DNA from: Armatimonadota bacterium | GTDB taxonomy: Bacteria; Armatimonadota; UBA5829; DTLH01 | Assembly (NCBI GenBank): GCA_039679675.1 | Contig: JBDKUN010000030.1 | Location: forward strand, 743-64,742 | DNA: 64,000 nt | Direction: 5' to 3' | Part shown: one piece after another, positions 1,029 to 57,443 of the stretch | How the letters are laid out: every line of letters begins with the position of its first letter | Numbering within the stretch: position 1 is the stretch's first letter | The notes under the pieces: model-generated | Told to the model about the DNA's origin: nothing | The model's database searches: none | Seen by the model: only the letters and a program-made list of their open reading frames with translations | Made by a program: the position numbers and the translations under genes

Positions 1029-1253
1029 ACACCAACCCCCTGATAAAAGTGTTAGAATAAGCACAATCCCCAACTATAAACAATGGCACTCTTCTCGATA
1101 TATCAGTCTCAGCTTTTTCAATGCTTCGGTGCGCTTTTTGCGCCGAAGCCCCCATTATCGGCATCCACGGTCTGAACAATCCATCCTACCATCCGCCTGC
1201 ATTGTTTATCACTAAAGAACCGGTACGCCATCTATATATGATGTCTCTTCTAA

Positions 1254-3079: not shown

Positions 3080-6000
3080 GTGACGCGCATATGTACGATA
3101 ATCATTATGCTGTTATCAGTCCTGGGGGCTGCAGTTTACGCCGCTTCCTGGGATTACTCGTACGAGTGTAACAATCTCCCTGAGAGCCCGATTTGTGCAA
3201 CTACAGAGCCAGTCACCGGTGATGTCCGCGAAGCCGTCAGCGGCTGCCTGCATATAGTGGACAGCGCAGCCAACCGTTCTCTCTACCAGGTGGACCTGAG
3301 CGGATGCTATTCCCCCGGAATACAAGCTGGTACAATCGAGACCATGCAGCAGTTCGTATCGTCGAGCAATATGAACAATATCATACTCATGATGCGGCAA
3401 GACACGAACGGCGCATCCGCCGAGATACGAATCGGATATTATGATGCCGGTGACGGCAGAAAAGGGCTCTGGAACGCAAATACAGGCCAGTATCTCGGCC
3501 CGACTGATCCGAACCTGTTTTACAAGATCAGAATGGTGCTCGACGGTCCGTCCGGCGGCCGCCTGTTCATAAACGACTCCTGCTTTGCCCACCTCGACGC
3601 AATCGCAGGCGGCACTTCACGCCTTTATTTCGGCGCAAATTCGACCCTTGGCACTGGCGAAGTCAACATAGACTATTTCCGGTGGAAATGCGCTGCCATG
3701 GCAGCCCCAGGCGACGCTGACGACCCCGGCGATCCGTCGGAGTTCATCAGTCCAAGGACTACATCGCTGCCCACAGCAGCGCCGGAACAGATGGCAGCCA
3801 CAATCACCTGGACTACCGATGTTCCAACCGACAGCACTGTCCGGTGGGGAACCGCATGGACCTGTCCGAATGCCACCCACGATGATACGCCCGTCACAAA
3901 TCACAGCGTCAGGATCGAAGGGCTGCAGCTTGGGACTACTTACAGGTTCTATGTCGAGTCATCCAACAGCACTACATACACTGCCCGGTCCGGCATACAA
4001 TCTTTTGCCACTCAAGACACCTTCAGGATAAGCTCCGGCCCGTTTGTCAGGACTGCTGCCGACGGCACATCCGCAACGGTCAGTTGGAATACGCCGTTCA
4101 CATCGGACTCGAAGCTCTTTATAAGGCAAAAGGGCCTCACTTCCTGGAATGAAGTCTGTAATCAGACGCCCGTAACGCTGCATGCGCTGGGCGCCTCGGA
4201 GCTTATCCCCAACACAGAGTATGAGTATTACGTTGTCTCTACGAGAGTAGGATCGACCGACGCGCAGTCACAGATATCCGGTTTCTTTACATATGTGTAT
4301 GACAACACTAACCCGCTACTTTCGAACTCCAGCTTCGAGCTGGGAAACACAGCCGGATGGTCCGGCACCGGAGCAGATGTGGGAGTGGTTTACGCCGGGC
4401 CTAAGTTCGACAGCATAATGCCGCACTCCGGCAACTACTTCCTTTGCGCGGAATCAAGCGGCGGAGCTAAAAGTGGCGCAGTATATCAGACTATCAGCAG
4501 CCTGCCCAAAGCGGATTACGTATATGCTTCTGTCTGGATTCACACCTATGAGACCGATTCGTCCGGCAATGAAGAACACAACTCAGCATTTTGCCAGATA
4601 GGTATAGATACAGTCCAACCGGCATCCGACGTACAGACGGATGCTTCGACTATCAAATGGTCAGCTCCTGTTTCTACCGCCAATACCGGCCCATGGGTAT
4701 GCATCGGGGTAAATATTCCGCTGTCAGGGTCAGACCATGCAACCGTCTTCCTCCGCCATGTGCAGACTGCGGACGGCGGGTTCAATGCGACGTGTTTCGA
4801 TGATGCCACAGTTTCCGTATCAGCTCAGACCTGCATAACTACCGGCCCAGCCATCACGATGAACGATGACCACACCAGCGCAGCTGTAGAATGGACGACC
4901 AGCGCTGAATCGACCAGCTTCATCCAGTATGGAAACGGAACAGCTGACAGTTACCAGTTCGGGAATTACCAACTGGACCTGACACCGAAGACTGCGCACC
5001 GGGTTGAGATCAGCATAGTTCCCGGTTCGAATTACGTGCTCCAGATAGGATCAGCGACACCAATGGGAATTTCACTTTCGGCTCCGATGGCGGTGTCCGC
5101 ACAGTCAAGTAACGAGCTTGTGAACTCCGATTTTGAAGCTGTCGATAGCCAGAATAATCCCACCCTGACGCCCTGGACGGTATTTCAGTATGACATCGAC
5201 GCACTCCAACGGTTCGCTTCGCCGGGACAGCCTGCCGGAGGCCCCATAGACGGGCTGACCGGCCCATATCCATATGGCGGCAGCAGTGACTGGCATGGAG
5301 TCACCTGCGAAAGTGACGGCGGCACGCACTTCATAGGGGCCTATTCCGAACCGGGAGAGAACAAAAACGGCGGAGTCTACCAGCAAGTGAAAGTAAGTCC
5401 CAGCAAATTGTATAAAGCATCTATGCGCTTTTTGACGCGCCAGGACCCTATCGACTTTACAAACCCTGCCGAATATACGGCATGCGCCATAGCAATCGAC
5501 CCGACCGGAGGGACGGATGTGCTGTCATCCAGCCTGATCTGGTCTCAGGACAAGAACAGCGCGACCAACGGCCAGTGGGAAGAAGTCGCAGTCTCCGCAC
5601 AGCCCAAAGGCGATGTTATCACCGTGTTTTGCATCATGGAGCAGCGGTATGACACCGCAACACATGTGAACGCCATAGACAATGTAAAACTCAAAGCAAT
5701 ACGGCCGGTTGCTGGAATACTCGGAAAAATGAAGCAGGACAATTCCATCGGCGGCACGGCCGCAATCGAGTCCGCAGTCGTCACCTGCGTTCACAGGCCG
5801 GAGATGTTAGGACAGCCTATACGCATTTACATCGAAGACCTCGACAGGTCTTGCGGAATCGGCGCAATATCGACAGACTGGAACCTCTGGTCCAATCCGC
5901 CCGCCGTAGGAGAAAGTATTTCTGTTCATGGGACTCTGACGACAGTATCGCTGAACGGATATCCGGCAGCTACCGGCGAAGCCGCGATAAATGATGCTGT

Positions 6001-6424
6001 CATAACTAGGCTGACAGACCCGCCCATTCTCCTTCAGCCGCTCGCCTTGACGCAGCGGCACCTGGGAGGCGGCACGTTCGGAATCCAACCCGGAGTAACC
6101 GGCGGCAGCGGGCTATCCAACATAGGACTTTTGATAAAAACGGTAGGAAAAGTCACGAGCGGGGACTCAAGCAGCGGCTGGATTACGGACGCAGACTCAA
6201 ACACCTGTATATACATCGATGACGGCTCGAAGATAAACTCAGGAACGGGCATCTACGGCATTAAAATCGTTGCCAATTCATCGACACCTTCGGTCTGCCC
6301 ACTTGCAGCCGGAGATATGGTCATGGTTACAGGGATTTCTACGGTCGAAGAAGTTAACGGCAGCCTGAAACCGGTATTGATCCTGCAGATGGACAGCGCC
6401 ATATCGGTCATTAATCAACAGTAG
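3080..6424 (+). CDS. Large secreted multi-domain protein (FN3-like and CBM4/9-like sugar-binding modules)
   Basis: GTG start at 3080, 11 nt after GGAGG; signal peptide MTRICTIIIMLLSVLGAAVYAAS. FN3-like segments (ATITWTTDVPTDSTVRWG ... TYRFYVESSN) and two CBM4/9-like segments beginning NSSFELGNTAGWSG and LVNSDFEAVDSQNNPTLTPW. Confidence 0.7.
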   Translation: MTRICTIIIMLLSVLGAAVYAASWDYSYECNNLPESPICATTEPVTGDVREAVSGCLHIVDSAANRSLYQVDLSGCYSPGIQAGTIETMQQFVSSSNMNNIILMMRQDTNGASAEIRIGYYDAGDGRKGLWNANTGQYLGPTDPNLFYKIRMVLDGPSGGRLFINDSCFAHLDAIAGGTSRLYFGANSTLGTGEVNIDYFRWKCAAMAAPGDADDPGDPSEFISPRTTSLPTAAPEQMAATITWTTDVPTDSTVRWGTAWTCPNATHDDTPVTNHSVRIEGLQLGTTYRFYVESSNSTTYTARSGIQSFATQDTFRISSGPFVRTAADGTSATVSWNTPFTSDSKLFIRQKGLTSWNEVCNQTPVTLHALGASELIPNTEYEYYVVSTRVGSTDAQSQISGFFTYVYDNTNPLLSNSSFELGNTAGWSGTGADVGVVYAGPKFDSIMPHSGNYFLCAESSGGAKSGAVYQTISSLPKADYVYASVWIHTYETDSSGNEEHNSAFCQIGIDTVQPASDVQTDASTIKWSAPVSTANTGPWVCIGVNIPLSGSDHATVFLRHVQTADGGFNATCFDDATVSVSAQTCITTGPAITMNDDHTSAAVEWTTSAESTSFIQYGNGTADSYQFGNYQLDLTPKTAHRVEISIVPGSNYVLQIGSATPMGISLSAPMAVSAQSSNELVNSDFEAVDSQNNPTLTPWTVFQYDIDALQRFASPGQPAGGPIDGLTGPYPYGGSSDWHGVTCESDGGTHFIGAYSEPGENKNGGVYQQVKVSPSKLYKASMRFLTRQDPIDFTNPAEYTACAIAIDPTGGTDVLSSSLIWSQDKNSATNGQWEEVAVSAQPKGDVITVFCIMEQRYDTATHVNAIDNVKLKAIRPVAGILGKMKQDNSIGGTAAIESAVVTCVHRPEMLGQPIRIYIEDLDRSCGIGAISTDWNLWSNPPAVGESISVHGTLTTVSLNGYPAATGEAAINDAVITRLTDPPILLQPLALTQRHLGGGTFGIQPGVTGGSGLSNIGLLIKTVGKVTSGDSSSGWITDADSNTCIYIDDGSKINSGTGIYGIKIVANSSTPSVCPLAAGDMVMVTGISTVEEVNGSLKPVLILQMDSAISVINQQ

Positions 6425-19158: not shown

Positions 19159-19301
19159 AATCAGCTCCCAGTTGAGCATTATCTGTTTTTAATACTCTAC
19201 GAGTAACGATTCACCCTTACACGCCACTTCGAAACAAATACGTCACTCTGCACAACTAATACATCACCCTAAACGAAGGGCCATCGCCCTGAACGAGGAG
19301 A

Positions 19302-19329
19302 CGTCACCCTGAACTTGATTCAGGGTCCA
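19302..19329. repeat. 28-bp hairpin repeat cgtcaccctgaacttgattcagggtcca, copy 1
   Basis: Exact match to 41099-41126; stem accctgaa/ttcagggt; preceded by degenerate tandem units tcaccctNaacg. Confidence 0.8.
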
Positions 19330-19431
19330 CCGGATTCCGAATCAAGTTCGGAATGGCGCTCTATTCATTCAGCATGACATTATATTCACAGTTTGTGAAC
19401 ACTCACATCAACATATGTTGACTATCACCGG

Positions 19432-24398: not shown

Positions 24399-24479
24399 TC
24401 CCTATTGCCTCCGACTAAAGAAAGTTCAGAGTTCAAAGTGCAGTGTGCACAGTTCATGCACCCGCACCAAATACCTCTA

Positions 24480-26246: not shown

Positions 26247-26388
26247 TGCTTAAGCACCTCTCCATACCCCTCGAAGATAAAATTCAACGGAACAAAGAAA
26301 CATCCCTTTGCTCCATGCGTAGCCGGGGCGAAACCTTCGATATGATTATCCACAGTAATCCGCGGTAAATGTGAGCCATTAATTATAG

Positions 26389-26397
26389 ATTATAGCA
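26389..26397 (-). promoter_or_regulatory. Candidate extended -10 element (TGCTATAAT) upstream of pilB
   Basis: Reverse complement of attatagca at 26389-26397 reads TGCTATAAT, about 140 nt upstream of the pilB ATG in the aroE-pilB spacer; no clear -35. Confidence 0.3.
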
Positions 26398-26408
26398 TTA
26401 AACAGGCT

Positions 26409-28873: not shown

Positions 28874-29292
28874 CTATCGTTTCCTTTTGCGTCTATATAG
28901 CTCTGGAGAATAACTGCCGCGGCAGCTTTATCAATTATATTTTTCCTCGCTTCACGGCTTTTGCCTGCATCAATAAGCATCCGTTCCGCTTCCGCAGTCG
29001 AATACCGCTCATCCCAATATTCCAGCGGGATTCTAAGCCTTCTAGCAAGTTTACCGGCAAATGCGCGGATCTTTTCCGCCTGCACTGCTTCCTGCCCACT
29101 CAGCATTATCGGGATTCCAGCTATAACCTTCGAGACATTTTCCTCTTCAATTATACGCACAATCGACCTCAGATCGGCTTTTTCGCTCACCGTACGCACG
29201 ATTGTTGTAAATGGAAACGCAAACGAGCCTGTATCATCGCTCAGAGCAACGCCGATCCGTTTTTCGCCGATATCCAACCCCATCAGCTTCAT
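28870..29292 (-). CDS. ruvX: Holliday-junction resolvase-like YqgF/RuvX
   Basis: MKLMGLDIGEKRIGVALSD RNase H-like N-terminus; 140 aa. Confidence 0.85.
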   Translation of the reverse strand: MKLMGLDIGEKRIGVALSDDTGSFAFPFTTIVRTVSEKADLRSIVRIIEEENVSKVIAGIPIMLSGQEAVQAEKIRAFAGKLARRLRIPLEYWDERYSTAEAERMLIDAGKSREARKNIIDKAAAAVILQSYIDAKGNDS

Positions 29293-31535
29293 GACAGCGC
29301 GGGTTCCTGCCTATCGAGGAGCGAGTAGAGGACTGCCATCACAAGGAAGCCAAAAATAAGCCCGCCGGCAACGATACCGGAATCGTTGAACAGGAACGCG
29401 GCTCCGGCTCCGACAATTGATGCGACAATACCAGAATGGAATGTCGGTCTGCCTTGAGACAACTCATCGATCTTCCGTCCAATCGAGGAAAACCAGAAGA
29501 TGAAAAACGGTATCGCACCGATAAGGGCCGTCTGCGCCTGTGTAGTGCCTATCAGGCTGATATTCATCGACAGTTTCCGGACTATGGTAGCGAGCAGGAT
29601 CGAATACCCTCCCCGGCTCCCAACAGAAGCCGCCAGGCCTATATGCGACTGGGCGCCGCGAGATAGAAACGCCTCCATAAAGCCGACACATGCGACAACA
29701 AGGCAACCGAGAATGACCAGCGCTGCTACATCGCGCGCACCAAACTTGCCCTTCACGCCCGATATATACACAGCTCCAAGCCCAACCACTGCTGCAAGCA
29801 TTCCTCCGGCATTGGCGCCGAATGCAGGGACTCCCAACCACAGTATGACAACCATAGAGGCTGCAAGTGCAGCCAGTTTTCCTTTATAACCGGCTGCCCA
29901 TCCGGGAAAACACTCTCTCAGCCACACCATTGCAATAAAAACGCAGCCCAGCCAGACTCCCATATACTCGTTACCAATCCCGTAAAACCTGTAACCTCTG
30001 AAATCCGTTACGCTGGGAAGAGCATATCTGATGATCTGGCCGCCGCCGCAGGCTTCAATAAACAGGACCACCATCGTAATCAGCGACAGGGCTACCAAAG
30101 GAAGCGCTCCAGGCAGGCGGTTGATCCGGTCTCCCAGCACACGTTTCAGTAAACTACTCATACCAAACGCGGCTGCAGTCAGAGCGACCATCCAGACACT
30201 GAGCCTTAATGCATAGGAAACTACGGACGGGCTCCCCGGCACGGCGAAAAACATGGCAAGCGGACTAGCCATTGTAGCAACAAGCAGGACTCTAAGGGCC
30301 ATCCCTGGCACTACCGGCCTGAACCCTTTGAATACTACAGCAGCGCCAGCAGCTGTGACGGCAATTATGCCTATCGCCGCAAGCACGCCAAGCACTGGCC
30401 AGACTGTTTTTCTGCAAAGCAGCACCATGCTATCGAGCCACTTTACCTGGTCTTCCTTACCTTGAATAGAGGTTATGGGTGTGCCGACCATCTTTTCAGG
30501 CTTCGATATGTCAAGCGCTGCCAGCACTGTAGGAGCAATATCAAAACCGGATACGAGCCCCACCGTCCGTGTGGTAGATGATGTGAGACTGCCGGACGAA
30601 CCTCCAGAATGCCATATGACTATCGGTGCAAGCCTGGACTTATCCCCCCGAACCGGGATTTTGGCAGCCATCGACGCAAGAATCACTGTCTCCCGTCCAT
30701 CACTGTCTTTCAAAATCCGCGACAAAAACTGATCCAGGTTCGCAAACGCCTTTGCGCGCTGCTTGGAATAGGCATAATCCGAAAGGTTTGTCTTGTTCAA
30801 CTCGACCCGAGCTGTGTCTCCAAAGTCTGCGACGGCAAAATCGACCGATTTGAGTGCGCTGTCAACGTCTGTGGCGAGTTTCGCTGAATCCGTAACGAAG
30901 CCCGTCGCGCTGACCGGATCGCGGCGAAGCATCCTATTACTGGTATCACCCACAGCGACTGCTCCGATCTCGTTCGCAGCCATAATCGCAGCCCTGCGGC
31001 GCTTTTGATCGGCGAGGTCTGAGTTTCCGAAAGCGGCGGTCTTTTTCCCGTTCTTATAAAGTGTATCTCCAAGGACACCTGGGAATGAGTTGGACCCTTT
31101 TTCCAGATTTATGGCGTCAAGCAGTGGGACTTCAAGCTGTACGACCGCAGGCATACTGCGCAGGCCCGTCCGGCGCTTGAATATCGTCCCAGCCGATCCA
31201 TACTCATCATCATCTGGTGATTCAAAGCTTGAATAGGCCTGATCCACATTACTATCGGCCCAGCAGTATGCCCCTGCGCTTACAGACGCATAACTGGATT
31301 GGACCGATCCCTTTCCGGTCGTTCCGGGGCAAATCAGCCCGACAGCACCTTCTGAAGCCAACTTATGAATGCCGGGCAGCTTGCTGTCCAGAAGGTCTGA
31401 CAGGGTTATGTAGTCGGCGATGACGAGCACGACCTTCGGACGCGCGGAAGCGCCCTGAGCAGGCATTGCAAGCGCTGTGAGCGCCAGGACAAGAAGAATG
31501 AAATTACGTATTACAGACATATTACTAGTTTTCAA
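29289..31535 (-). CDS. 748-aa membrane protein: N-terminal periplasmic alpha/beta-like domain plus C-terminal polytopic (at least 10 TM) domain, function unknown
   Basis: Signal peptide MKTSNMSVIRNFILLVLALTALAMPAQGA, soluble domain of about 330 aa (KVVLVIADYITLSDLLD), then many hydrophobic helices; translationally coupled to ruvX by a 4-bp overlap. Confidence 0.5.
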   Translation of the reverse strand: MKTSNMSVIRNFILLVLALTALAMPAQGASARPKVVLVIADYITLSDLLDSKLPGIHKLASEGAVGLICPGTTGKGSVQSSYASVSAGAYCWADSNVDQAYSSFESPDDDEYGSAGTIFKRRTGLRSMPAVVQLEVPLLDAINLEKGSNSFPGVLGDTLYKNGKKTAAFGNSDLADQKRRRAAIMAANEIGAVAVGDTSNRMLRRDPVSATGFVTDSAKLATDVDSALKSVDFAVADFGDTARVELNKTNLSDYAYSKQRAKAFANLDQFLSRILKDSDGRETVILASMAAKIPVRGDKSRLAPIVIWHSGGSSGSLTSSTTRTVGLVSGFDIAPTVLAALDISKPEKMVGTPITSIQGKEDQVKWLDSMVLLCRKTVWPVLGVLAAIGIIAVTAAGAAVVFKGFRPVVPGMALRVLLVATMASPLAMFFAVPGSPSVVSYALRLSVWMVALTAAAFGMSSLLKRVLGDRINRLPGALPLVALSLITMVVLFIEACGGGQIIRYALPSVTDFRGYRFYGIGNEYMGVWLGCVFIAMVWLRECFPGWAAGYKGKLAALAASMVVILWLGVPAFGANAGGMLAAVVGLGAVYISGVKGKFGARDVAALVILGCLVVACVGFMEAFLSRGAQSHIGLAASVGSRGGYSILLATIVRKLSMNISLIGTTQAQTALIGAIPFFIFWFSSIGRKIDELSQGRPTFHSGIVASIVGAGAAFLFNDSGIVAGGLIFGFLVMAVLYSLLDRQEPALS

Positions 31536-31568
31536 CTTTCAGCAGGGAGGGGATTAGCGAAGATTCGT

Positions 31569-31927
31569 GCTTCGGGATGAACTGCGATCCCGAAGCATAG
31601 GGTTAGGTGCTGTAAATTTTATTTATGCTGCGGGAATGGCAGGTCTGTATAATTTACTAACTTACACAGATTTAATTCCCGCAGCAACGGAAATTGGCGA
31701 ATGTCGCAATAGCTGCGGGAACTAAGTTAGGAACAATAGAAAATTATTCACATATTTTCCGTTTCCGCAGCATAGAAATTTCTTGTTATTTCGGGACGCC
31801 CTCGTCCCGAAATCTACCCTCCGTAGTTAGGCCGGTATCGGGACAAGGTGTCCCGATACAACAGGCAATCACCCTCACCCTGTTCCACACTCCGCACTTT
31901 CCTAAATCCTCGAATCCTCAATCCTTT
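31569..31927. repeat. Composite intergenic repeat region (REP-like palindromes)
   Basis: gcttcgggat-N10-atcccgaagc (31569-31596); ctgcgggaat-N37-attcccgcag (31628-31684); ttcgggacg-ccc-cgtcccgaa (31790-31813); atcgggac-aaggt-gtcccgat (31846-31866); (aatcct)3 tail 31904-31927. Modules recur at 39687-39708, 41193-41219, 41290-41310, 56433-56490, 56547-56574. Confidence 0.65.
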
Positions 31928-31930
31928 CCC

Positions 31931-34579
31931 CTAACCCGCCTGTTTGCGGACCAGTTCGACAGCTGTCTGCAGTGCTTCATCGACTTTAGATGCGTCTCTG
32001 CCGCCAGCCTGGGCGAACTCCGGTCTTCCACCGCCGCCGCCGCCAGCGACTTTCGCAACTTCGCGTATCAGGTTTCCAGCATGGAACCCGCGCTTCACAA
32101 GATCAGGTGTGACTTTGCTGATAAAGAGCACTTTGCCGTCGCCTACTCCGCCGAGCACCACGACACCGGACTTCAATTTATCGGCTATGCCGTCTGCGAG
32201 AGCACTGAGCACCTGAGCGTTCGCCGTCTGGACTTTGTTCGCAACCAGATTTACGCCGGATATGTCATGCGCGGCCGCTGCAAGTTCCTGCGACTGCTCC
32301 GCGGCTGATTTTGCCTGAATCTGCTCGATCTTCCGCTGAGTCTCCTTCAGGTTCGTCTGCAGCCGCTCGATAGCCGAAGCTGCTTCAAGCGGCGAGGAAC
32401 CAAGCTTTTCCGACACCTCATGCAAAAGGTCTTCTATATCATGAACGTGCTGCACTGCGCCGCTCCCGGTCACAGCTTCGATCCTTCTCAAGCCCGCGCC
32501 GACGCTCGACTCGCTCACAAGCTTGAAAAGCCCCACCTGTGACGTCCGGCTGAGGTGAGTTCCACCGCAAAGCTCGGTGCTGTAATCGCCGACCTTCATC
32601 ACGCGGACATGCTTGCCGTATTTCTCACCGAAGAGAGCCATCGCGCCCATTTTTCTGGCTTCGTCTATGTTGGTCTCTGTGACTTCGACCGGAAGATCGG
32701 CTAGAATTTTATCGTTTACCTCATCCTCTATCTGCCTGAGCTCGTCCGATGTCACCGCCTGAAAGTGCGAAAAATCGAACCTCAACCTTCCGGGTTCGAC
32801 AACCGAACCTGCCTGAAGCGCGTGCGGTCCCAAAATATGTCTGAGAGCCGCGTGCAAAAGGTGTGTCGCAGTGTGATTCCGGGCAATAGCCATCCGCCGC
32901 TCAACATCGACCTCACAGTGGACATCATCGCCGACCTTTATCTCGCCGGAAACGACTTCTACCGCATGTAAGAATACGTGCGCAGCCTTCACAGTGTTCT
33001 TGACTCTCAGCATTGCGCCGCGGGACATTATCTGGCCTTCGTCGCCGACCTGTCCGCCGGACTCAGCATAAAACGGCGTCCTGTCGAGCACTAAATCGAC
33101 CAGATTGCCCTCTTTTGCTACGCTTATCTGCTCGCCGCGTTCGAGTATCGCAAGTACCTTCGCATCTGACTTCAGACTGTGATAGCCCACGAACTCCGTG
33201 GCTGGAACGGTCTGCTCGAGCTCAAGAATCGCACCGTTGCCGCCGCCGAAGAGGGATGCCGCGAAGTCGCTGGACTCCTTTGCGCGTTTACGCTGGTCTT
33301 CCATTGCGGTCTCGAACCCTGCTACATCTACCTCTATTCCTTCTGACTGGGCAATCTCCTGTGTAAGCTCCAGCGGGAATCCATAAGTGTCATGAAGCGA
33401 GAATGCCGCATCACCGGGAAGAAGGTTCCCGCCGCTCTTTTTGACATCCTCGATCTGCTGCATAAGTCTGGACATGCCGGAGTCCAACGTGTGAAGGAAC
33501 TTCTCTTCCTCGGCTTTGATAAGACTCGTGACATAATCCTGCCTGTCCTTCGGCTCGGTGTAAACATCCTTCATCAGGTCCGCGACGACTCCGACGAGTT
33601 CGTGCAGGAACGGCTTGTCTACTCCGAGAGAATTGCCCCTCAGCACCGCCCGCCGTATGATCCTGCGGAGAACATAGCCTCTGCCGATGTTCGACGGCAT
33701 AACTCCGTCGGCTATCGCGAAGACTGCGCCCCTGATATGGTCCGCTATGACCCGGATAGCTCTCGTGGTCTCCTCGTCCTTGCCATAACTTGCGCCCGTA
33801 ATCTTCTCGATTGCCTTGATTATAGGCTGGAACAGGTCAGTATCGTAGTTCGACGGAGCGTTGTTCAGGATGGCGATAGTCCGCTCAAGCCCCATACCCG
33901 TATCGATGTTCTTTGTGGGAAGCGGGTCGAGCGTTCCGTCCTCCTGGCGGTCGAACTGCTGGAAGACCAGGTTCCATATCTCGACGAAACGGTTGCCATC
34001 GTGGGCTATGGACCATGCCGGGTCCTCTGGTGCGCCCGCTTCAGGGTTCACATCGAGGAATATCTCATTGCAGGGGCCGCAGGGACCGTTCGGACCCATG
34101 GTAGGCGCGTTTGCAGGCCAGTAGTTCTTGTCCTCGCCGAGCCGCACGATCCTTTCCTTCGGGAAGCCGACTTCGTTGACCCAGATATCATAGGCCTCAT
34201 CGTCATCCAGATAAATACTCGTCCAGAGATTGTCCGGGTTGAGCTTCAGGGCATCCGTAAGGAACTCCCAGGCCCAGGTAATTGCTTCACGCTTGAAATA
34301 ATCGCCGAAGCTGAAGTTACCGAGCATCTCGAAGAAGGTATGATGCACCGCATCGCCGACTTCTTCTACGTCATCAGTCCGCATGCACTTCTGGGACGTG
34401 ACTAATCTCGGCGCCGGAGGAACCCTGTCCCCTATGAAATACGGCTTGAACTGCACCATTCCCGCTGCGGTATAAAGAAGGGACGGGTCGTTCGGCACTA
34501 GCGAATCACTTGGGTGGATAAGGTGTTTTTTACTCTCAAAAAATTTCAGATATGCTGTTCTAAGTTCACTACTTGTCAT
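31931..34579 (-). CDS. alaS: Alanine--tRNA ligase
   Basis: MTSSELRTAYLKFFESKKHLIHPSDSLVP...LLYTAAGMVQFKP class-II AlaRS N-terminus, HxxxH editing-domain motifs, 882 aa. Confidence 0.9.
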   Translation of the reverse strand: MTSSELRTAYLKFFESKKHLIHPSDSLVPNDPSLLYTAAGMVQFKPYFIGDRVPPAPRLVTSQKCMRTDDVEEVGDAVHHTFFEMLGNFSFGDYFKREAITWAWEFLTDALKLNPDNLWTSIYLDDDEAYDIWVNEVGFPKERIVRLGEDKNYWPANAPTMGPNGPCGPCNEIFLDVNPEAGAPEDPAWSIAHDGNRFVEIWNLVFQQFDRQEDGTLDPLPTKNIDTGMGLERTIAILNNAPSNYDTDLFQPIIKAIEKITGASYGKDEETTRAIRVIADHIRGAVFAIADGVMPSNIGRGYVLRRIIRRAVLRGNSLGVDKPFLHELVGVVADLMKDVYTEPKDRQDYVTSLIKAEEEKFLHTLDSGMSRLMQQIEDVKKSGGNLLPGDAAFSLHDTYGFPLELTQEIAQSEGIEVDVAGFETAMEDQRKRAKESSDFAASLFGGGNGAILELEQTVPATEFVGYHSLKSDAKVLAILERGEQISVAKEGNLVDLVLDRTPFYAESGGQVGDEGQIMSRGAMLRVKNTVKAAHVFLHAVEVVSGEIKVGDDVHCEVDVERRMAIARNHTATHLLHAALRHILGPHALQAGSVVEPGRLRFDFSHFQAVTSDELRQIEDEVNDKILADLPVEVTETNIDEARKMGAMALFGEKYGKHVRVMKVGDYSTELCGGTHLSRTSQVGLFKLVSESSVGAGLRRIEAVTGSGAVQHVHDIEDLLHEVSEKLGSSPLEAASAIERLQTNLKETQRKIEQIQAKSAAEQSQELAAAAHDISGVNLVANKVQTANAQVLSALADGIADKLKSGVVVLGGVGDGKVLFISKVTPDLVKRGFHAGNLIREVAKVAGGGGGGRPEFAQAGGRDASKVDEALQTAVELVRKQAG

Positions 34580-36220: not shown

Positions 36221-38683
36221 ATGAATACTACACTGCATCTCCTTATTATTGAAGACTCGGAAGAAGAAGCTCTGCGGATAGTGCGCGAACTGGAACGCGG
36301 AGGCTATAGCGTCGTATTCGAGCGAGTGGACACACCTGAGGTTATGTCTGCCGCGCTTGTCAACAGGTTCTGGGATGTAATTGTCGCTGGTTACAAAATG
36401 CCGCGTTTCAATGGGCTGGAGGCGCTGAAACTTCTAAGAAAAAAAGGGTTCCACCAACCGTTCATCCTGATCTCCGGCAAAATCGGGGAAGATGCTGTCG
36501 CGGAAGCATTGAAATCGGGCGCTGATGACTATATAAACAGAGATAATCTGGCACAATTGGCTCCTACTGTCCAGCGAGTGATAAATGAGGCAATGCGCCG
36601 GGAAGAGCACCTACAGGCGGATAATGAACTCAGGCAAAGCGAACGTTTACACAGGCAGATCATCGAGACTGCGCTTGAAGGCGTGTGGTTACTGGATTCG
36701 AATTGGAAAACCGCATTTCTGAACAAACGTGTGGCTGAAATGCTCGGCTACACGATGCAGGAATTGATGGATTACACTGTTTTTGATTTCGTATACGAAG
36801 CCGACCTGGAAAACGCAAAGAATTACTATGAGCGGCGCAAACAGGGTATCGCCGAGGTATTCGATTTCCGTTTCCGCCGCAAAGACGGCTCTGAACTATG
36901 GACACTGATCTCCACAACGCCGGTGTTCGACGATTCAGGCAACTTCGCGGGATCACTCGCAATGCTCACAGACATAACCGACCGTAAACATGCCGAAAAA
37001 GAGCGCGAGGAAGCGGAAGTCAAATACCAAATACTGGCAGAAGAATCACTGCTTGGAGTATATATCATACAAGATAGGAAATTCGTCTACGTGAACCCCC
37101 GCTTAGCTGAAATGACCGGTTACACACGTGAGGAGCTTACCGGCAAAATGTCTCCACTGGACATCGCCACTCCTGAAAGCCGAAAACTTGTCGAGGAGAA
37201 TTTACAGCAGCGTCTGGCAGGAGCAGCGAAAAGCATCCATTACAGCCTTAAAGCAATTCGCAAAGATGGTTCGCGGTTCGACATGGAGGTCATCGGATCG
37301 CGTGCCATGTACATGGGAAAACCTGCAATTCTCGGATCCGTCCTCGACATCACAGAGCGCAAACAAGCCGAAGAAGCCCTCGATGAAGAACGAAAGCTCT
37401 TTGCAGCCGGGCCAACTGTGGTTTTCAAGTGGAGAAACGCGGAAGGTTGGCCGGTAGAATACGTCTCCCCAAACATCAAGAGCCAGTTCGGCTATGATCC
37501 TGAAGATCTAGCCAGCGGTAAAATCAGCTATTCATCGTTAATTCACCCTGATGACCTGTTTCGAGTAGCAATGGAAGTGATGTCCCACAGTAAGTCCGGC
37601 GAACCCTACTTCGAGCAGGAATACCGGATTCTTCGCTCAGATGGTGAATATCGGTGGCTGCATGACTTTACGCTGGTAGTAAGGAATTCCAGTGGAGATA
37701 TTACACACTATCACGGCTATGTAGTGGATATGACCGACCGCAAGCATGCCGAAGAAGAACTGAAAGAAGCCGAAGCTAAATACCGGATACTGGCTGAGGA
37801 GTCATTGGTCGGCGTTTACATCATCCAGAACGATAAATTCGTCTATGTGAACCCTCGCTTTGCCGAAATGCTTGGCTACACACGTGAAGAGATTGTCGAT
37901 AAGGTATCTCCGCTAGATATTGTTTCTCCCGAAGATCGGGCTACAGTCGCTGAGAACATACGCCGCCGTATGGCAGGAGAAATAGAAAGCGTCCACTACA
38001 CACTCAAATGGCTGCGTAAGGATGGCACGACTGTAGACGGAGAAGTAATCGGCACTCTTGCAACATATAGGGGAAAACCGGCAATCATCGGGCTGTTCAT
38101 AGACATCACTGAGCGAGTAAGGGCCGAGGAAAGACGTCTGGAACTCGAAAACCAGCAAAGGCAGTTCTACAGGCAGACCATCCTGTCAGCCACCGGCGGA
38201 AAACTCATCATATCAGAGCCGTATGAGATCTCAGAGCTTGACCGGTACGTTACCAAAACCTATCCGCTCCGAACACCTGCCGATCTGGAAGCCATACGCG
38301 TAGAAACTAGGAATACAGCAATGTCTTACGGCATGTCTGAATCGAGAGCAGGAAATTTCGCCCTATGTGTAGGAGAGGCAGCAACCAATGCACTGAAACA
38401 TGCCGGTGGTGGAGAGGTAATGCTGATTCACCGGGACGATAGGATCCTGGCCCGCGTCAGTGACCATGGCCACGGAATGGATGCGCTGATCCTGCCGCTC
38501 GTGACACTGGAGCGAGGTTATTCCACTACCAAGTCGCTCGGTATGGGTTATGCGATCATCCTCAGCATAGCTGACCATGTTTTTCTGAACACCGGGCCTT
38601 TGGGGACTAATGTAGTGATAGAAATGGACATTAAGCCCAAACCCCCGGTATCGCTCATCGAAGCACTACCCGATACATGGTAA
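36221..38683 (+). CDS. Hybrid signalling protein: response-regulator receiver + 4 PAS domains + C-terminal RsbW/SpoIIAB-like GHKL ATPase (HATPase_c_2), no HisKA domain
   Basis: Preferred start MNTTLHLLIIEDSEEEALRI (receiver; D in IVAGYKMP). Four PAS blocks, two nearly identical (KHAEKEREEAEVKYQILAEESLLGVYII... and KHAEEELKEAEAKYRILAEESLVGVYII...). C-terminal GEAATNALKHAGGGEVMLIHRDD...DHGHGMD. Confidence 0.75.
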   Translation: MNTTLHLLIIEDSEEEALRIVRELERGGYSVVFERVDTPEVMSAALVNRFWDVIVAGYKMPRFNGLEALKLLRKKGFHQPFILISGKIGEDAVAEALKSGADDYINRDNLAQLAPTVQRVINEAMRREEHLQADNELRQSERLHRQIIETALEGVWLLDSNWKTAFLNKRVAEMLGYTMQELMDYTVFDFVYEADLENAKNYYERRKQGIAEVFDFRFRRKDGSELWTLISTTPVFDDSGNFAGSLAMLTDITDRKHAEKEREEAEVKYQILAEESLLGVYIIQDRKFVYVNPRLAEMTGYTREELTGKMSPLDIATPESRKLVEENLQQRLAGAAKSIHYSLKAIRKDGSRFDMEVIGSRAMYMGKPAILGSVLDITERKQAEEALDEERKLFAAGPTVVFKWRNAEGWPVEYVSPNIKSQFGYDPEDLASGKISYSSLIHPDDLFRVAMEVMSHSKSGEPYFEQEYRILRSDGEYRWLHDFTLVVRNSSGDITHYHGYVVDMTDRKHAEEELKEAEAKYRILAEESLVGVYIIQNDKFVYVNPRFAEMLGYTREEIVDKVSPLDIVSPEDRATVAENIRRRMAGEIESVHYTLKWLRKDGTTVDGEVIGTLATYRGKPAIIGLFIDITERVRAEERRLELENQQRQFYRQTILSATGGKLIISEPYEISELDRYVTKTYPLRTPADLEAIRVETRNTAMSYGMSESRAGNFALCVGEAATNALKHAGGGEVMLIHRDDRILARVSDHGHGMDALILPLVTLERGYSTTKSLGMGYAIILSIADHVFLNTGPLGTNVVIEMDIKPKPPVSLIEALPDTW

Positions 38684-39616: not shown

Positions 39617-39972
39617 TTTTTGAGCAATCAGCTTTCAGCCGTCAGCTATCAGTGAAAAAGAACCATGCTCGGGAGGAATTTTGTTGTGCTGCGAGAATGG
39701 CAGATTTGGTGGATGTCGTGCTTCTCCCCGTGGTCCGGTAGGTCCACAGCTACTACCCCCGTGGTCCGGTAGGTCCACGGGGTAACTGCGGTCCCGAAGC
39801 ACAAAATATCCTGGACTCTTGCTCGGTAGGGGTTTGTAATCCCTACCGGATAGGCAAATGAGGCATCTCTGATGCAGGGTGATCGATTATAGTCGAATAA
39901 CCGGGATCTATAGATCCCTATCCGGCCATTCCGGGCTGCATTTCAAATACAGCCCGAGTAATCTATTCCCTG

Positions 39973-41022
39973 TCACCTGTTCCCTCTTTTCAACGAATGT
40001 CCTTTGCCGGTTGCCACAGTCCGGCCTACAGAGAGGATTCGGGCGGTGAGACACGAGCCGCATTTTTCAGGGTCTTCCGTGATACACCGCTTATTCGGAT
40101 AGATTTCGTAGTCCACACGGTAGACAAGCGGAGTGTGGTTCGGCATCACGACATTTGCCCCGGCCTGAAGCGCCTTTTCCCTGCCGAACTCGTCGACCGA
40201 CCCTGCGGCCGTAGTTGCAGGGAGGAGCGCGTTTCGCGTAACAATTCTGGCGAGAGCGACCATCCTGAGCGCCATTTCAAGCGAACCCTGAGCCGCACAC
40301 CCAAGCGGAGTATCGGGATGAGGGATAAACGGCCCGATTCCGGCCATATCGACATCGAGTTCTTTAAAGAGCAGAATATCATTCGCCATATCTTCGACTG
40401 TCTGGCCCGGAAGCCCGACCATACAGCCCGCTCCTATCTGATAACCAAGCCTCTTCAGCTCACGAAGGCATCCCAGCCGCTTCTCAAGAGTTGAGTCCGG
40501 GTGCATTTTCCTGAAAAGCTCCGGGTTGGATGTCTCATGGCGGAGCAAATAGCGGTCTGCCCCAGCCTCTTTCCAGAGCGCATAGTCATCGAACGGCCGC
40601 TCACCAAGGCAAAGAGTCACTGCAATGTCCGCGACGGACTTTATCCTCCGGACTATGTCCGCAACGACTTCCCTGGTGAAGCTCAAATCCTCGCCGGACT
40701 GGAGAACGATGGTTTGAATCTTCTTAGCCGAGAGCTTTACAGCCATTTCGACTATTTCGTCCGGGGTCATCCTGTAGCGGTTGACCGACTTGTTCGATCT
40801 CCTTAGCCCGCAGTAGAGGCAGTCGTTTTTGCATATATTCGAGAACTCGATCAGCCCACGAATATGGACATCATCGCCGCAGTACCGCTTTCTGACCTCG
40901 TCGGCGGCTGCAATCAGCCGCGCAACATCAGCCTCATCCTTAAGCGACAACAAAAAGATAATCTCGTCCCGGTTAAGATCGCCGGACTCTATGCATTTGG
41001 TTAATAAGTTATCTAGATTCAT
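39973..41022 (-). CDS. hydE: [FeFe]-hydrogenase maturase HydE (radical SAM)
   Basis: VHIRGLIEFSNICKNDCLYCGLRRSN...YRMTPDEIVE...IVLQSGED...GADRYLLRHET...GAGCMVGLPGQT...GIGPFIPHPDTPL closely matches conserved HydE blocks; 349 aa. Confidence 0.8.
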   Translation of the reverse strand: MNLDNLLTKCIESGDLNRDEIIFLLSLKDEADVARLIAAADEVRKRYCGDDVHIRGLIEFSNICKNDCLYCGLRRSNKSVNRYRMTPDEIVEMAVKLSAKKIQTIVLQSGEDLSFTREVVADIVRRIKSVADIAVTLCLGERPFDDYALWKEAGADRYLLRHETSNPELFRKMHPDSTLEKRLGCLRELKRLGYQIGAGCMVGLPGQTVEDMANDILLFKELDVDMAGIGPFIPHPDTPLGCAAQGSLEMALRMVALARIVTRNALLPATTAAGSVDEFGREKALQAGANVVMPNHTPLVYRVDYEIYPNKRCITEDPEKCGSCLTARILSVGRTVATGKGHSLKRGNR

Positions 41023-41098
41023 AGTTAGTTAGGGAACAGGTGACAGGGAAGAGGGAATAGAAAAGCTGTCAGCAAAGGCGTCACCATGAACAGACCGA

Positions 41099-41126
41099 CG
41101 TCACCCTGAACTTGATTCAGGGTCCA
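41099..41126. repeat. 28-bp hairpin repeat, copy 2
   Basis: Exact copy of 19302-19329 in the hydG-hydE spacer; also preceded by gcgtcaccatgaacaga / cgacgtcaccctgaac units. Confidence 0.8.
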
Positions 41127-41311
41127 TTTTTTCCTGGATGCTGAGTCAAGCTCAGCATGACGTTGTATCCAATGCTTCGAGTAGCACCCTATGCTTCGGG
41201 ATTCTTTTCTTCCCGAAGCACGAGTCTCCACTAATCCGTAGAGCTGGCTTGACGTTGTTACCTATCGAATCTCCATCAATCCCATCCCTGAATCCTGTAT
41301 CCTGTATCCTC

Positions 41312-54637: not shown

Positions 54638-54888
54638 GAACCGCGGAGACGCGGAATAATGGGAAACGCGGAAGGTAGAGATTTACAGCATTTACTCTTA
54701 TGCTACAAATCTCTGCCAATCTCTTTGGAGTGCGGAAGCTGGCGCTTCCGCTTTTCTATCGGCATACTCTATCCCGTCCTATGCGTCGGGCCCCGTGGAC
54801 CCACTGGACCACGGGGAGAAACACAATTTTCTACTAATTTGGCAAGCTAGCTTTGATGCAAACTACAAGCATCCGAAGGAAGGACGAT

Positions 54889-55491: not shown

Positions 55492-55537
55492 TTTTCGCGT
55501 CTTTTGTGCTTCTTCGCGTCCATCGCGATTCGAAACA
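55492..55537. repeat. 45-bp direct repeat, copy 1 (ttttcgcgtcttttgtgcttcttcgcgtccatcgcgattcgaaaca)
   Basis: Matches 56593-56636 with 2 mismatches; the pair brackets the Mrr-like gene plus a repeat-element segment (about 1.1 kb). Confidence 0.7.
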
Positions 55538-56345: not shown

Positions 56346-56432
56346 TAGAACATCCTTTGCATCATATTATTATTAAATATGAATGACACAAAGTGATTGT
56401 TCCATATCATGTATTTCGGAATCGCTTCATTG

Positions 56433-56574
56433 CTGCGGGAATTGATTCTGTGCATATCGCACAATTATCCGAAATCTGCCATTCCCGCAGCGTACCCCTC
56501 GTCCCACCCTTCTCCCGCAAGGGACAAATAGTGCTAAATTCCTATGTTTCGGGACCGCAGTTCGTCCCGAAACA
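56433..56574. repeat. Second copy of composite repeat modules
   Basis: ctgcgggaat-N38-attcccgcag (56433-56490) then cctcgtccc, then gtttcgggac-cgcagttc-gtcccgaaac (56547-56574); same module order as 31628-31813. Confidence 0.65.
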
Positions 56575-56592
56575 CGAGTTTCTATCAATCTC

Positions 56593-56636
56593 TTTCGCGT
56601 CTTTCGTGCTTCTTCGCGTCCATCGCGATTCAAAGC
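56593..56636. repeat. 45-bp direct repeat, copy 2
   Basis: tttcgcgtctttcgtgcttcttcgcgtccatcgcgattcaaag; ends at the rsmG stop codon. Confidence 0.7.
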
Positions 56637-57343: not shown

Positions 57344-57443
57344 ACAGCCCTCCGTCTCTCATTCACAATCTGTTTCAGATTATACCTGAAACTCATTAAT
57401 AGTATAACAAACCCTAAAGCAGTGGATTATAGATTAGCAGTGT

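What the first reader, a model, noticed from the sequence alone, without database searches (positions are those of the whole stretch)
31536..31930. Dispersed family of intergenic palindromic (REP-like) modules at five or more loci
Related modules recur in the intergenic regions at 19.2, 31.6, 39.7, 41.1 and 56.4 kb. They are: (i) gcttcggga-N9-11-tcccgaagc hairpins (31569-31596, 41193-41219; variant gtttcgggac...gtcccgaaac at 56547-56574; half-site at 39788-39802); (ii) ctgcgggaat(ggcag)-N37/38-attcccgcag (31628-31684, 56433-56490; 39687-39708 carries the gctgcgagaatggcagattt arm); (iii) a cctcgtccc core (31800, 56499); (iv) (aatcct)n tails immediately 3' of alaS and hydG stops (31904-31927, 41290-41310). 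The order of modules is conserved between the 31.6-kb and 56.4-kb copies. No protein coding is evident. These are candidates for a REP/MITE-like element or a small structured RNA family.
Basis: seen in the sequence. Interest (0 to 1): 0.6.

Follow-up and report, generated by a model that had tools for sequence, protein, structure and literature searches.

The report
Mosaic of REP-type palindromic repeats
The spacer after alaS, and several other spacers in this Armatimonadota-like genome, are built from short hairpin repeats of the REP type already known from other bacteria, so the finding is real but ordinary in kind.

Summary
The hairpin TTCGGGA-N-TCCCGAA occurs 4 times in the window against 0 expected. 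Repeats fill 27-72% of 9 of the 32 spacers.

It is not one family but a mosaic of several.
- A is a 28-nt hairpin, GCTTCGGGAY-N8-RTCCCGAAGC, with an unpaired 3' ATA(G) tag. The window holds three full copies, and 38 occur in 245 kb of Armatimonadota DNA.
- D is a CGTC-tagged REP in head-to-head dimers. It meets every published defining feature.
- B is a 60-nt long-loop relative of A.
- C palindromes sit nested inside A hairpins.
- There are also heptamer tails and smaller modules.

In a related MAG, the only RAYT-like (REP-associated tyrosine transposase) pseudogene found carries two inverted A copies. At the orthologous alaS spacer of a sister genome the A copy is kept. The remaining ~305 nt (B, F, H1, tail) are absent there, while B and F occur at other loci of that genome.

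No Rfam match, promoter or terminator was found, and A lies in both orientations relative to transcription.

Verdict: REP/BIME-like non-autonomous repeats, and a new member of a known kind. No intact transposase was found, and the copy number in the source genome is unknown.

The parts
31551..31603 (+). Family A copy 1. It has a 5' extension GGATTAGCGAAGATTCGT, the hairpin GCTTCGGGAT-GAACTGCG-ATCCCGAAGC (31569-31596) and the tag ATAGG. It lies 27 nt upstream of the start of the 748-aa gene on the minus strand.
   Evidence: Sequence. Covariance model R1 scores 59 bits on + against 19.9 bits on -. The DNA hairpin folds at -12 kcal/mol, z -4.7. The segment 31536-31620 is 97.6% identical to the orthologous L005 4466-4550.
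31623..31687 (+). Family B unit 1, a long imperfect hairpin: TTAT + GCTGCGGGAAT (31627-31637), a 37-nt interior, then ATTCCCGCAGC (31675-31685).
   Evidence: DNA fold -16 kcal/mol, z -5.6. The arms are identical to L019 6178-6245, which is at a different locus.
31712..31775 (+). Family B unit 2: GCTGCGGGAAC, a 38-nt interior, GTTTCCGCAGC, then the tag ATAG. Together with unit 1 it forms a 155-nt doublet.
   Evidence: Window 31624-31778 matches L019 6178-6324 at 83%. Alignment.
31788..31813 (.). F hairpin ATTTCGGGACG-CCCT-CGTCCCGAAAT.
   Evidence: R1 scores 18.5 bits. Window 31783-31820 is 97% identical to L012 2325-2362.
31835..31859 (.). H1 hairpin GTATCGGGAC-AAGGT-GTCCCGATAC, a weak relative of A.
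   Evidence: R1 scores 12 bits, E 0.22. It is weak and no second copy was seen.
31900..31927 (-). Heptamer tandem tail ((AATCCTC)n on +, GAGGATT on the alaS sense strand). It starts 5 nt after the alaS stop codon.
   Evidence: TRF: period 7, 3.6 copies. It is one of only two such clusters in the window.
41097..41164 (.). Family D: a head-to-head dimer of CGTC-tagged REPs. The two units are GACGTC-ACCCTGAA-CTTGA-TTCAGGGT-CCA and, inverted, AACGTC-ATGCTGAG-CTTGA-CTCAGCAT-CCAGGA.
   Evidence: DNA fold -18.7 kcal/mol with the two tags pairing. Segment 41097-41126 is 100% identical to 19300-19329.
41186..41237 (-). Family A copy 2 (extension, hairpin, ATAGGGT), lying between the two radical-SAM genes on the minus strand.
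   Evidence: R1 scores 51.7 bits. It is 85% complementary to copy 1 over 53 nt. A public 13.4-kb contig of the same organism ends inside this hairpin, at 41208.
41287..41310 (-). Heptamer tandem tail ((CCTGTAT)n on +). It starts 1 nt after the stop codon of the 463-aa radical-SAM/BATS gene.
   Evidence: TRF: period 7, 3.4 copies, 94% matches.
56430..56491 (-). Family B single unit, inverted relative to the 31.6-kb copy.
56495..56535 (.). G module (CCCCTCGTCCCACCCTTCTCCC-GCAA-GGGA...), truncated here.
   Evidence: Window 56495-56523 matches L012 2286-2314 at 90%. Sequences.
56539..56591 (-). Family A copy 3, with stem variant GTTTCGGGAC...GTCCCGAAAC. The C-G to T-A change is compensated on both arms.
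   Evidence: R1 scores 58.9 bits.
39687..39707 (+). Solitary 5' arm of family B (GCTGCGAGAATGGCAGATTT).
   Evidence: 95% match to the 56.4-kb copy over 20 nt, E 2e-4. Alignment.
39709..39806 (+). A::C composite. It reads A extension plus GCTTC, then two C palindromes (CCCCGTGGTCCGGTAGGTCCAC..., 39726-39747 and 39757-39782), then AACTGCG-GTCCCGAAGC.
   Evidence: The same junction (GCTTC-T-CCCCGTGG) is seen in L011 3943-4050 and L025 1127-1235.
54776..54840 (-). A::C composite, reduced. On + it reads CCTATGCGTCGGG + CCCCGTGGACCCACTGGACCACGGGG + AGAAACAC + extension remnant.
   Evidence: (I1, I5).
19299..19358 (.). Family D head-to-head dimer (ACCCTGAA and ATTCCGAA stems), preceded by a 20-nt periodic repeat at 19261-19314.
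   Evidence: (D2, I22).
1116..1155 (-). Weak relative of A: GCTTCGGCGCA-AAAAG-CGCACCGAAGC.
   Evidence: R1 scores 20.3 bits, E 8e-4. Copies in L011 3904-3943 and L024 5756-5809.

Best explanation
The region is a mosaic of REP-type (repetitive extragenic palindrome) non-autonomous repeats, comparable to a BIME cluster. It belongs to an Armatimonadota lineage.

The core family (A) is a 10-bp-stem hairpin, GCTTCGGGAY-N7-9-RTCCCGAAGC. It has an unpaired ATA(G) tag at its 3' foot, which reads CTAT at the 5' foot on the other strand. In this genus it also carries an 18-nt 5' extension.

Inferred mechanism, by analogy with E. coli TnpA-REP (PMC3479197). When the DNA is single-stranded, the hairpin and its foot tag are bound by a RAYT-type HUH tyrosine transposase. 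The enzyme cuts and rejoins nearby and so occasionally seeds new copies. Copies are otherwise inherited vertically and decay, recombine or receive nested insertions, which gives the mosaic.

Family D is a CGTC-tagged REP in head-to-head dimers; no transposase is known for that class. Family B is a long-loop derivative that shares A's foot, TAT|GCTKCGGGA.

Also inferred from what is established for REPs elsewhere, not tested here: because most copies lie between co-directional genes, they are probably transcribed. As stable hairpins they may buffer mRNA 3' ends or dampen read-through.

Shown: the repeats, their anatomy, their extragenic dispersal, presence/absence at an orthologous site, and the link to a RAYT pseudogene in a relative.
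Inferred: RAYT-driven mobility in the window's own genome, and any RNA-level role.
For: - Non-chance recurrence in the window.
- 31 exact hits in 596 Gb of genomes, about 24 of them in five Armatimonadota-type MAGs.
- 38 model hits in 245 kb. Polarity is clear, about 59 bits on one strand against 20 on the other.
- The stem is 97.9% paired, and 4 of 10 pairs show compensatory changes.
- All 10 copies that were not selected through the tag still carry ATA after the stem.
- Most copies are extragenic although 88% of the DNA is coding. Between co-directional genes, 11 are forward and 6 reverse on the mRNA.
- Inverted doublets with 17-nt spacers occur in L026 and L030.
- RAYT pseudogene at L027 ~3650-4235. 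The C-terminal part scores E 4e-21 against a local RAYT profile and E 4.9e-9 against NCBIfam NF047646. The N-terminal part scores E 1.3e-3. One A copy lies inside it and an inverted one 22 nt past its stop.
- Its full-length relatives score 91-98 bits, above the 80-bit NF047646 cut-off. Most are bracketed by inverted hairpins.
- At the orthologous alaS spacer in L005 the A copy is kept, but the ~305 nt holding B, F, H1 and the tail are missing. B and F occur at other loci of that genome.
- D fits every listed feature of CGTC REPs. There are 19 copies against 0-3 for control loops, with three fully compensated stem variants (PMC3733652).
Against: - No intact RAYT carrying A hairpins was found. 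There is none in the window, and none of 80 metagenomic RAYT loci has an A hairpin.
- The one RAYT link is a pseudogene in a different MAG. Its layout is not the clean bracketed form.
- Strict copies are few: 11 or fewer per related MAG. The copy number in the window's own genome is unknown.
- A's tag is neither GTAG nor CGTC.
- The stem sequence is so conserved that covariation is thin, and the seed copies were selected for perfect stems.
- The A copy upstream of the 748-aa gene is more conserved (97.6%) than the flanking genes (81-88%). That could mean host function rather than mobility.
- No target-site signature was identified.
Confidence: 0.75

Rival explanations
1. The hairpins are host cis-acting RNA signals, such as U-tract-less terminators, mRNA 3'-end stabilisers or sites for an RNA- or DNA-binding protein. 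They recur because the host selects them, not because they move.
For: - Most copies lie between co-directional genes, downstream of stop codons.
- The hairpins are very stable: the region folds with z -7.7 to -10, and single units with z -4 to -6.
- The orthologous A copy is 97.6% conserved against 81-88% for the neighbouring genes.
- Loop and tag are conserved, which could reflect a binding protein.
Against: - Both orientations occur relative to transcription, 11 against 6.
- No T-run terminators or promoters were found.
- B, F, H1 and the tail are present in the window but absent at the orthologous spacer of the relative.
- Nested insertions and truncated copies occur.
- A copies are linked to a RAYT pseudogene.
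- This reading is not exclusive of the REP reading, since E. coli REPs have such secondary roles.
Confidence: 0.15
2. The B units, and perhaps the whole 31.62-31.78 kb block, are MITEs derived from a DDE-type insertion sequence. They would be mobilised through their 12-14-nt terminal inverted repeats with a TA target duplication.
For: - B has inverted termini, TATGCTGCGGGAAT / ATTCCCGCAGCATA.
- TA flanks several units.
- The units are 60-155 nt long.
- Placement is non-orthologous between the two genomes.
Against: - No insertion sequence with these termini occurs in any fetched locus. The arm motif is found only in L019 among related loci.
- The arms share the foot and tag of family A, and the A model hits B1 at 19.9 bits. 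The flanking TA is therefore part of the CTAT/ATAG tag rather than a duplication.
- The 56.4-kb unit has AT on one side and TA on the other, not a matching TA pair.
Confidence: 0.07
3. The modules are genes for a family of small structured RNAs.
For: Strong predicted structure and compensatory stem changes in D and, to a small extent, in A.
Against: - No Rfam match at gathering scores or at E 0.5.
- No promoter- or terminator-like sites.
- Units are 28-60 nt, occur in either orientation, and are truncated, nested and shuffled between loci.
Confidence: 0.03

Closest known systems
REP / REPIN elements with RAYT transposases (E. coli, Pseudomonas; PMC3116915, PMC3479197, PMC5581495)
   Same: - Family A is a 28-nt extragenic palindrome with a conserved unpaired tetranucleotide at one foot.
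- It occurs as singletons and as inverted doublets.
- It is conserved across related genomes.
- It is tied to a RAYT-family gene, here a pseudogene in a related MAG.
   Different: - The tag is ATA(G)/CTAT, not GTAG.
- The host phylum is Armatimonadota.
- Only tens of strict copies per related MAG were seen, not hundreds.
- No intact RAYT was found.
- In this genus the hairpin carries an 18-nt 5' extension.
CGTC-tagged REPs (Di Nocera et al. 2013, PMC3733652)
   Same: Family D has the CGTC tag, an 8-bp stem opening with A-T, a 5-nt loop, a CCA tail and head-to-head dimers. Stem variants are compensated. No transposase is nearby.
   Different: It is found here in Armatimonadota, which is not among the five phyla listed in that paper. 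It recurs as a fixed composite with family A through a conserved 26-28-nt linker.
BIMEs of E. coli and the mosaic intergenic regions of Neisseria (dRS3 and other repeats)
   Same: Several short repeat families are combined in varying order and orientation inside the same spacers. Conserved linkers and nested elements are present.
   Different: The sequences are unrelated. Protein partners such as IHF and gyrase could not be tested here.
Insertions into REP hairpins (for example ISPpu9 in P. putida REPs, PMC8450116)
   Same: The C palindrome doublet sits at the same position inside the 5' arm of A hairpins at four sites (window 39.7 and 54.8 kb, L011, L025).
   Different: C is a 26-nt palindrome without coding capacity. 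A single ancestral insertion that then spread as a composite explains the data equally well.

Membership tests
REP (generic definition) | A short (20-40 nt) imperfect palindrome that forms a stem-loop. | tested here: met
   28-nt unit with a 10-bp stem and 7-9-nt loop. DNA fold -11.3 to -12 kcal/mol, z -4.3 to -5.3.
REP (generic definition) | Many dispersed copies that are mainly extragenic. | tested here: met
   38 copies in 245 kb, most of them in spacers although 88% of the DNA is coding. The total per genome could not be counted for the window's organism.
REP (generic definition) | A conserved unpaired tag at one foot of the hairpin. | tested here: met
   ATA(G) follows the stem in all copies, including 10 of 10 that were not selected through the tag.
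GTAG-tagged REP superfamily | The tag fits GTAG or its listed degenerate forms (GYAG, GYRG, GTRG, GTMG). | tested here: not met
   The tag reads CTAT 5' of the hairpin, or ATAG 3' on the other strand. Definition taken from PMC3733652.
REPIN-RAYT system | REP doublets in inverted orientation, separated by a short spacer. | tested here: inconclusive
   Present in related MAGs: L026 2931-3005 and L030 436-510, both with 17-nt spacers. The three A copies in the window are singletons.
REPIN-RAYT system | A cognate RAYT gene flanked by the same REP. | tested here: inconclusive
   Only a RAYT pseudogene was found (L027), with one A copy inside it and one 22 nt past its stop. None was found in the window or in 80 metagenomic RAYT loci.
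CGTC-tagged REP superfamily (family D) | A terminal CGTC tag. | tested here: met
   rACGTC precedes the stem in 15 of 19 copies.
CGTC-tagged REP superfamily (family D) | An 8-9-bp stem opening with A-T, a 4-5-nt loop and a CCA tail. | tested here: met
   8-bp stems starting with A...T, loop CTTGA, tail CCA or CCAGGA. Criteria from PMC3733652.
CGTC-tagged REP superfamily (family D) | Predominantly head-to-head dimers, with the tags on the outside. | tested here: met
   Both window loci (19299-19358 and 41097-41164) are head-to-head dimers.
MITE (DDE transposase-derived) | Terminal inverted repeats, a target-site duplication and a parent insertion sequence with the same ends. | tested here: inconclusive
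   B has inverted termini. No clear duplication was seen and no parent insertion sequence is in the fetched DNA.
Intrinsic terminator | A G+C-rich hairpin followed by a run of T. | tested here: not met
   0 terminator-like sites in 31300-32100. The A hairpins are followed by ATAGG.
Any Rfam RNA family | A covariance-model match. | tested here: not met
   0 matches at gathering scores and 0 at E up to 0.5 over the whole window.

The most novel reading that the evidence does not exclude
Family A would represent a third tag class of REPs (CTAT/ATAG) with its own RAYT lineage in Armatimonadota. The recurrent fixed composite A-linker-D would mean that CGTC-tagged REPs, for which no transposase has ever been identified, are carried along by a RAYT-mobilised partner.
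Probability: 0.1. Interest if true: 0.55.

Novelty: new member of a known kind. Interest (0 to 1): 0.3.

Why it matters
The finding extends tagged REP elements to Armatimonadota, a phylum known mostly from uncultured genomes. This includes the CGTC class, whose means of spread is unknown. It also shows a REP whose foot tag is neither GTAG nor CGTC.

In practice, these repeats explain the unusually long spacers in this genome. They break assemblies: one public contig ends inside a copy. They also provide markers for strain typing and for dating divergence among these MAGs.

It does not open a new kind of biology.

Tried and rejected
- An exact look-up of the GidB-like protein found nothing. The look-up of the 463-aa radical-SAM protein returned only a 13-kb contig of the same organism.
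- The homologue search with the 64-aa RAYT fragment gave 2 proteins. The contig of the second could not be read.
It returned 80 RAYT loci at 37-54% identity, none with an A hairpin. These were useful only to show the bracketed layout of that clade.
- I first read L027 as a RAYT remnant cleanly flanked by two A copies. A local RAYT profile then showed an N-terminal fragment to the left of the 'left' copy, so one copy lies inside the pseudogene. I corrected this.
- I suspected a promoter (TATAAT) inside B1. The scan found none, and the motif is not kept in the 56.4-kb copy.
- I considered that the AATCCT tails pair with the A extension. At 41 kb the two are in direct orientation, not inverted, so there is no consistent pairing.
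- The cctcgtccc 'core' as a module of its own was rejected.

Full report
**Setting.** The window has 51% G+C and carries ordinary chromosomal genes: alaS, a GidB-like methyltransferase, two radical-SAM genes, shikimate dehydrogenase, PAS histidine kinases and DUF1559 proteins. The finding, 31536-31930, is the spacer between alaS (31931-34579, minus strand) and a 748-aa gene (29289-31535, minus strand). No tRNA and no Rfam family is present anywhere in the window, even at E 0.5.

A scan of 185,579 species genomes with the hairpin pattern returned 31 loci, about 24 of them in five Armatimonadota-type MAGs. One locus, L005 from MAG JBDKSP01, is syntenic with window 28.1-36.5 kb at 81-88% identity. 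The window therefore comes from a close relative of that MAG. Its own genome is not in the collections; only a 13-kb contig from run SRR15035648 matches it exactly.

- TTCGGGA-N6-13-TCCCGAA occurs four times against 0.00 expected.
- The GCTGCGGGAAT arm occurs 11 times, allowing one mismatch, against 1.7 expected.
- An all-against-all comparison of the 32 spacers gives matches down to E 5e-15.
- Sequence repeated elsewhere in the window, or at non-syntenic loci of relatives, covers 15% of all spacer DNA. It is concentrated in 9 spacers, at 27-72% each, and reaches 62% in the finding region.
- The cctcgtccc core is not a module of its own (E 2.4).
- The 19.2-kb locus shares only the D module with 41.1 kb.

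**Family A.** Oriented copies read (GGATTAGTGGAGAyTCGT) GCTTCGGGAY - GAAmwGCG - RTCCCGAAGC ATAGG.
- A covariance model built from 31 copies finds three full copies in the window: 31563-31603 on the plus strand (59 bits), 56539-56579 on the minus strand (58.9 bits) and 41186-41225 on the minus strand (51.7 bits).
- The opposite strand of each scores only 18-20 bits, so the element has polarity.
- Weak relatives lie at 1116-1155, 31787-31813 and 31838-31856.
- Across 245 kb of Armatimonadota DNA there are 38 hits at E <= 1e-5.
- The stem is 97.9% paired, and four of ten pairs show changes on both sides, mostly the closing pair C-G to T-A.
- This covariation is modest, and the seed copies were chosen for perfect stems.
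- The ATA(G) tag is not an artefact of the search pattern. All ten copies that were not found through the tag also have ATA after the stem.
- Most copies lie in spacers although 88% of the DNA is coding. Between co-directional genes, 11 are forward and 6 reverse relative to the mRNA.
- In two other MAGs, A occurs as inverted doublets with 17-nt spacers, the REPIN layout (L026 2931-3005, L030 436-510).

**Link to a RAYT.**
- Searching all ORFs of the window and loci with E. coli RayT, taken from the MG1655 record, gave one hit, in L027 (E 2.5e-5).
- NCBIfam names that fragment a REP-associated tyrosine transposase (NF047646, E 4.9e-9, profile positions 103-146 of 146).
- Full-length relatives from metagenomes score 91-98 bits, above that model's 80-bit cut-off. 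Most are bracketed by inverted hairpins such as CTCGTTCCCACGCGCCGCGTGGGAATGC.
- A profile built from these relatives hits L027 twice. Segment 3999-4232 scores E 4e-21 over profile positions 107-176 of 181. Segment 3626-3820 scores E 1.3e-3 over positions 10-44, with the motif TFFITDTVTEWQPLL.
- The gene is therefore a pseudogene of roughly full span that has lost its HUH-motif middle part.
- One A hairpin (3853-3881) lies inside the damaged middle. An exact inverted copy (4258-4286) lies 22 nt past the stop.
- This is not a clean REPtron.
- The association is still unlikely to be chance. RAYT genes are typically single-copy per genome (PMC5581495), and this is the only RAYT-like sequence found in the DNA fetched here. 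By my own rough estimate, which assumes a genome of about 3.5 Mb, the chance of such a gene lying within 400 nt of one of this MAG's eight sampled A copies is about 0.002.
- No intact A-linked RAYT was found.

**Family D.** Window 19299-19358 and 41097-41164 each hold two inverted units of the form rACGTC | A-N7 CTTGA N7-T | CCA(GGA).
- Nineteen such hairpins occur in 245 kb, against 0-3 for control loops.
- There are three stem variants (ACCCTGAA, ATGCTGAG, ATTCCGAG), each fully compensated on the other arm.
- The family meets every feature that Di Nocera et al. list for CGTC-tagged REPs: the tag, an 8-9-bp stem opening with A-T, a 4-5-nt loop, a CCA tail and head-to-head dimers.
- That paper reports the class in five phyla, not including Armatimonadota, and finds no associated transposase.
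- The dimer folds with its two tags paired, at -18.7 kcal/mol.
- A and D also recur as a fixed composite with a 26-28-nt linker, in L011, L021, L024 and window 41.1 kb.

**Other modules.**
- B consists of 60-nt long hairpins (31627-31685, 31712-31771, 56432-56491). Their foot, TAT|GCTGCGGGAA, differs by one base from that of A. The A model detects B1 of L019 at 19.9 bits.
- The B doublet at 31624-31778 matches L019 6178-6324 at 83%, with identical arms, at a non-orthologous locus. B is rare.
- C palindromes (CCCCGTGGACCTACCGGTCCACGGGG) sit at the same position in the 5' arm of A at four sites. This indicates either one insertion that later spread as a composite, or a targeting preference for A.
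- The tails are heptamer arrays found only twice.

**Evidence for movement.** At the orthologous alaS spacer, L005 keeps the A copy and the 5' leader of the downstream gene (97.6% over 85 nt). It has 68 unrelated nucleotides where the window has about 305 nt holding the tail, H1, F, B2 and B1. B and F occur elsewhere in that genome (L019, L012). I found no target duplication.

**How it most likely works.** The anatomy matches the substrate of RAYT enzymes: a hairpin plus a foot tetranucleotide, recognised on single-stranded DNA and cleaved nearby (PMC3479197). I infer RAYT-driven, rare, copy-out spread with mainly vertical inheritance, followed by decay and recombination into mosaics. A secondary RNA-level role is plausible, because most copies lie between co-directional genes and are very stable. 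That role was not tested.

**Rival explanations.**
- Host-selected RNA signals fit the position of the copies and the high conservation of the orthologous copy. They do not fit the two orientations, the missing T-runs, the presence/absence difference, or the nested and truncated copies.
- A DDE-type MITE origin for B is not excluded, but no parent element or duplication supports it.
- A small-RNA gene family is unlikely.

**Novelty and limits.** This is a new member of a known kind. I found no paper that mentions both Armatimonadetes and 'repetitive extragenic palindromic'. The points of mild interest are a foot tag that is neither GTAG nor CGTC, the CGTC class in a further phylum, and the A-D composite. 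The main limits are that the copy number in the source genome is unknown, that no intact transposase was found, and that there are no expression data.

Noticed in passing
window 24423-24456, 26382-26400, 31900-31925, 39623-39652, 41287-41310: All five period-7/8 tandem arrays that TRF finds in the window lie in spacers and begin 1-23 nt after a stop codon. Their unit sequences differ. The AGCTATC-type array at 39623-39652 also follows stop codons in L012, L019 and L020.
   Followed up: partly
window 39963-39985 and 41031-41053: A 23-nt inverted repeat, 96% complementary, brackets the 349-aa radical-SAM gene almost exactly. One arm overlaps its stop codon and the other lies 9 nt before its start. 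The motif AGGGAACAGRTGACAGGGAA recurs in L019 at 500-524 and 6356-6379.
   Followed up: partly
window 55493-55534 and 56593-56634: A 42-nt repeat, 95% identical (TTTCGCGTCTTTYGTGCTTCTTCGCGTCCATCGCGATTC), lies immediately after the stop codons of two minus-strand genes (the Mrr-like and GidB-like genes). It is rich in ACGCGAA-type sub-repeats. Related copies lie at L019 558-606 and L003 5218-5237.
   Followed up: no
window 57372-57398: The hairpin GTTTCAG-ATTATAC-CTGAAAC has five copies in L011 and L025 (89-96% identity). It is a further small repeat family.
   Followed up: no
window 19261-19314: A 20-nt periodic repeat (2.7 copies of ACATCACCCTGAACGAAGAG) leads into the first D hairpin, as if half-sites of D were iterated.
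   Followed up: no
window 41208 (end of locus L001): The only public contig identical to the window (Logan, SRR15035648, 13.4 kb) ends inside the loop of A copy 2, as expected if the assembler broke at a repeat.
   Followed up: yes
L027 3581-3620, 3757-3797 and about 4700: The RAYT pseudogene region of MAG JAUSGG01 holds a further repeat (CCGTTGTCKCGTGAAACCC...), seen in the sequence twice in direct orientation. A possible third copy near 4700 is inferred only from a shared peptide in overlapping ORF translations. One copy lies inside the pseudogene.
   Followed up: no
window 36971-37177 and 37727-37933: A 207-nt direct repeat at 73% identity lies inside the 865-aa PAS/histidine-kinase gene. 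It is a duplication of a PAS domain and is unrelated to the spacer repeats.
   Followed up: partly
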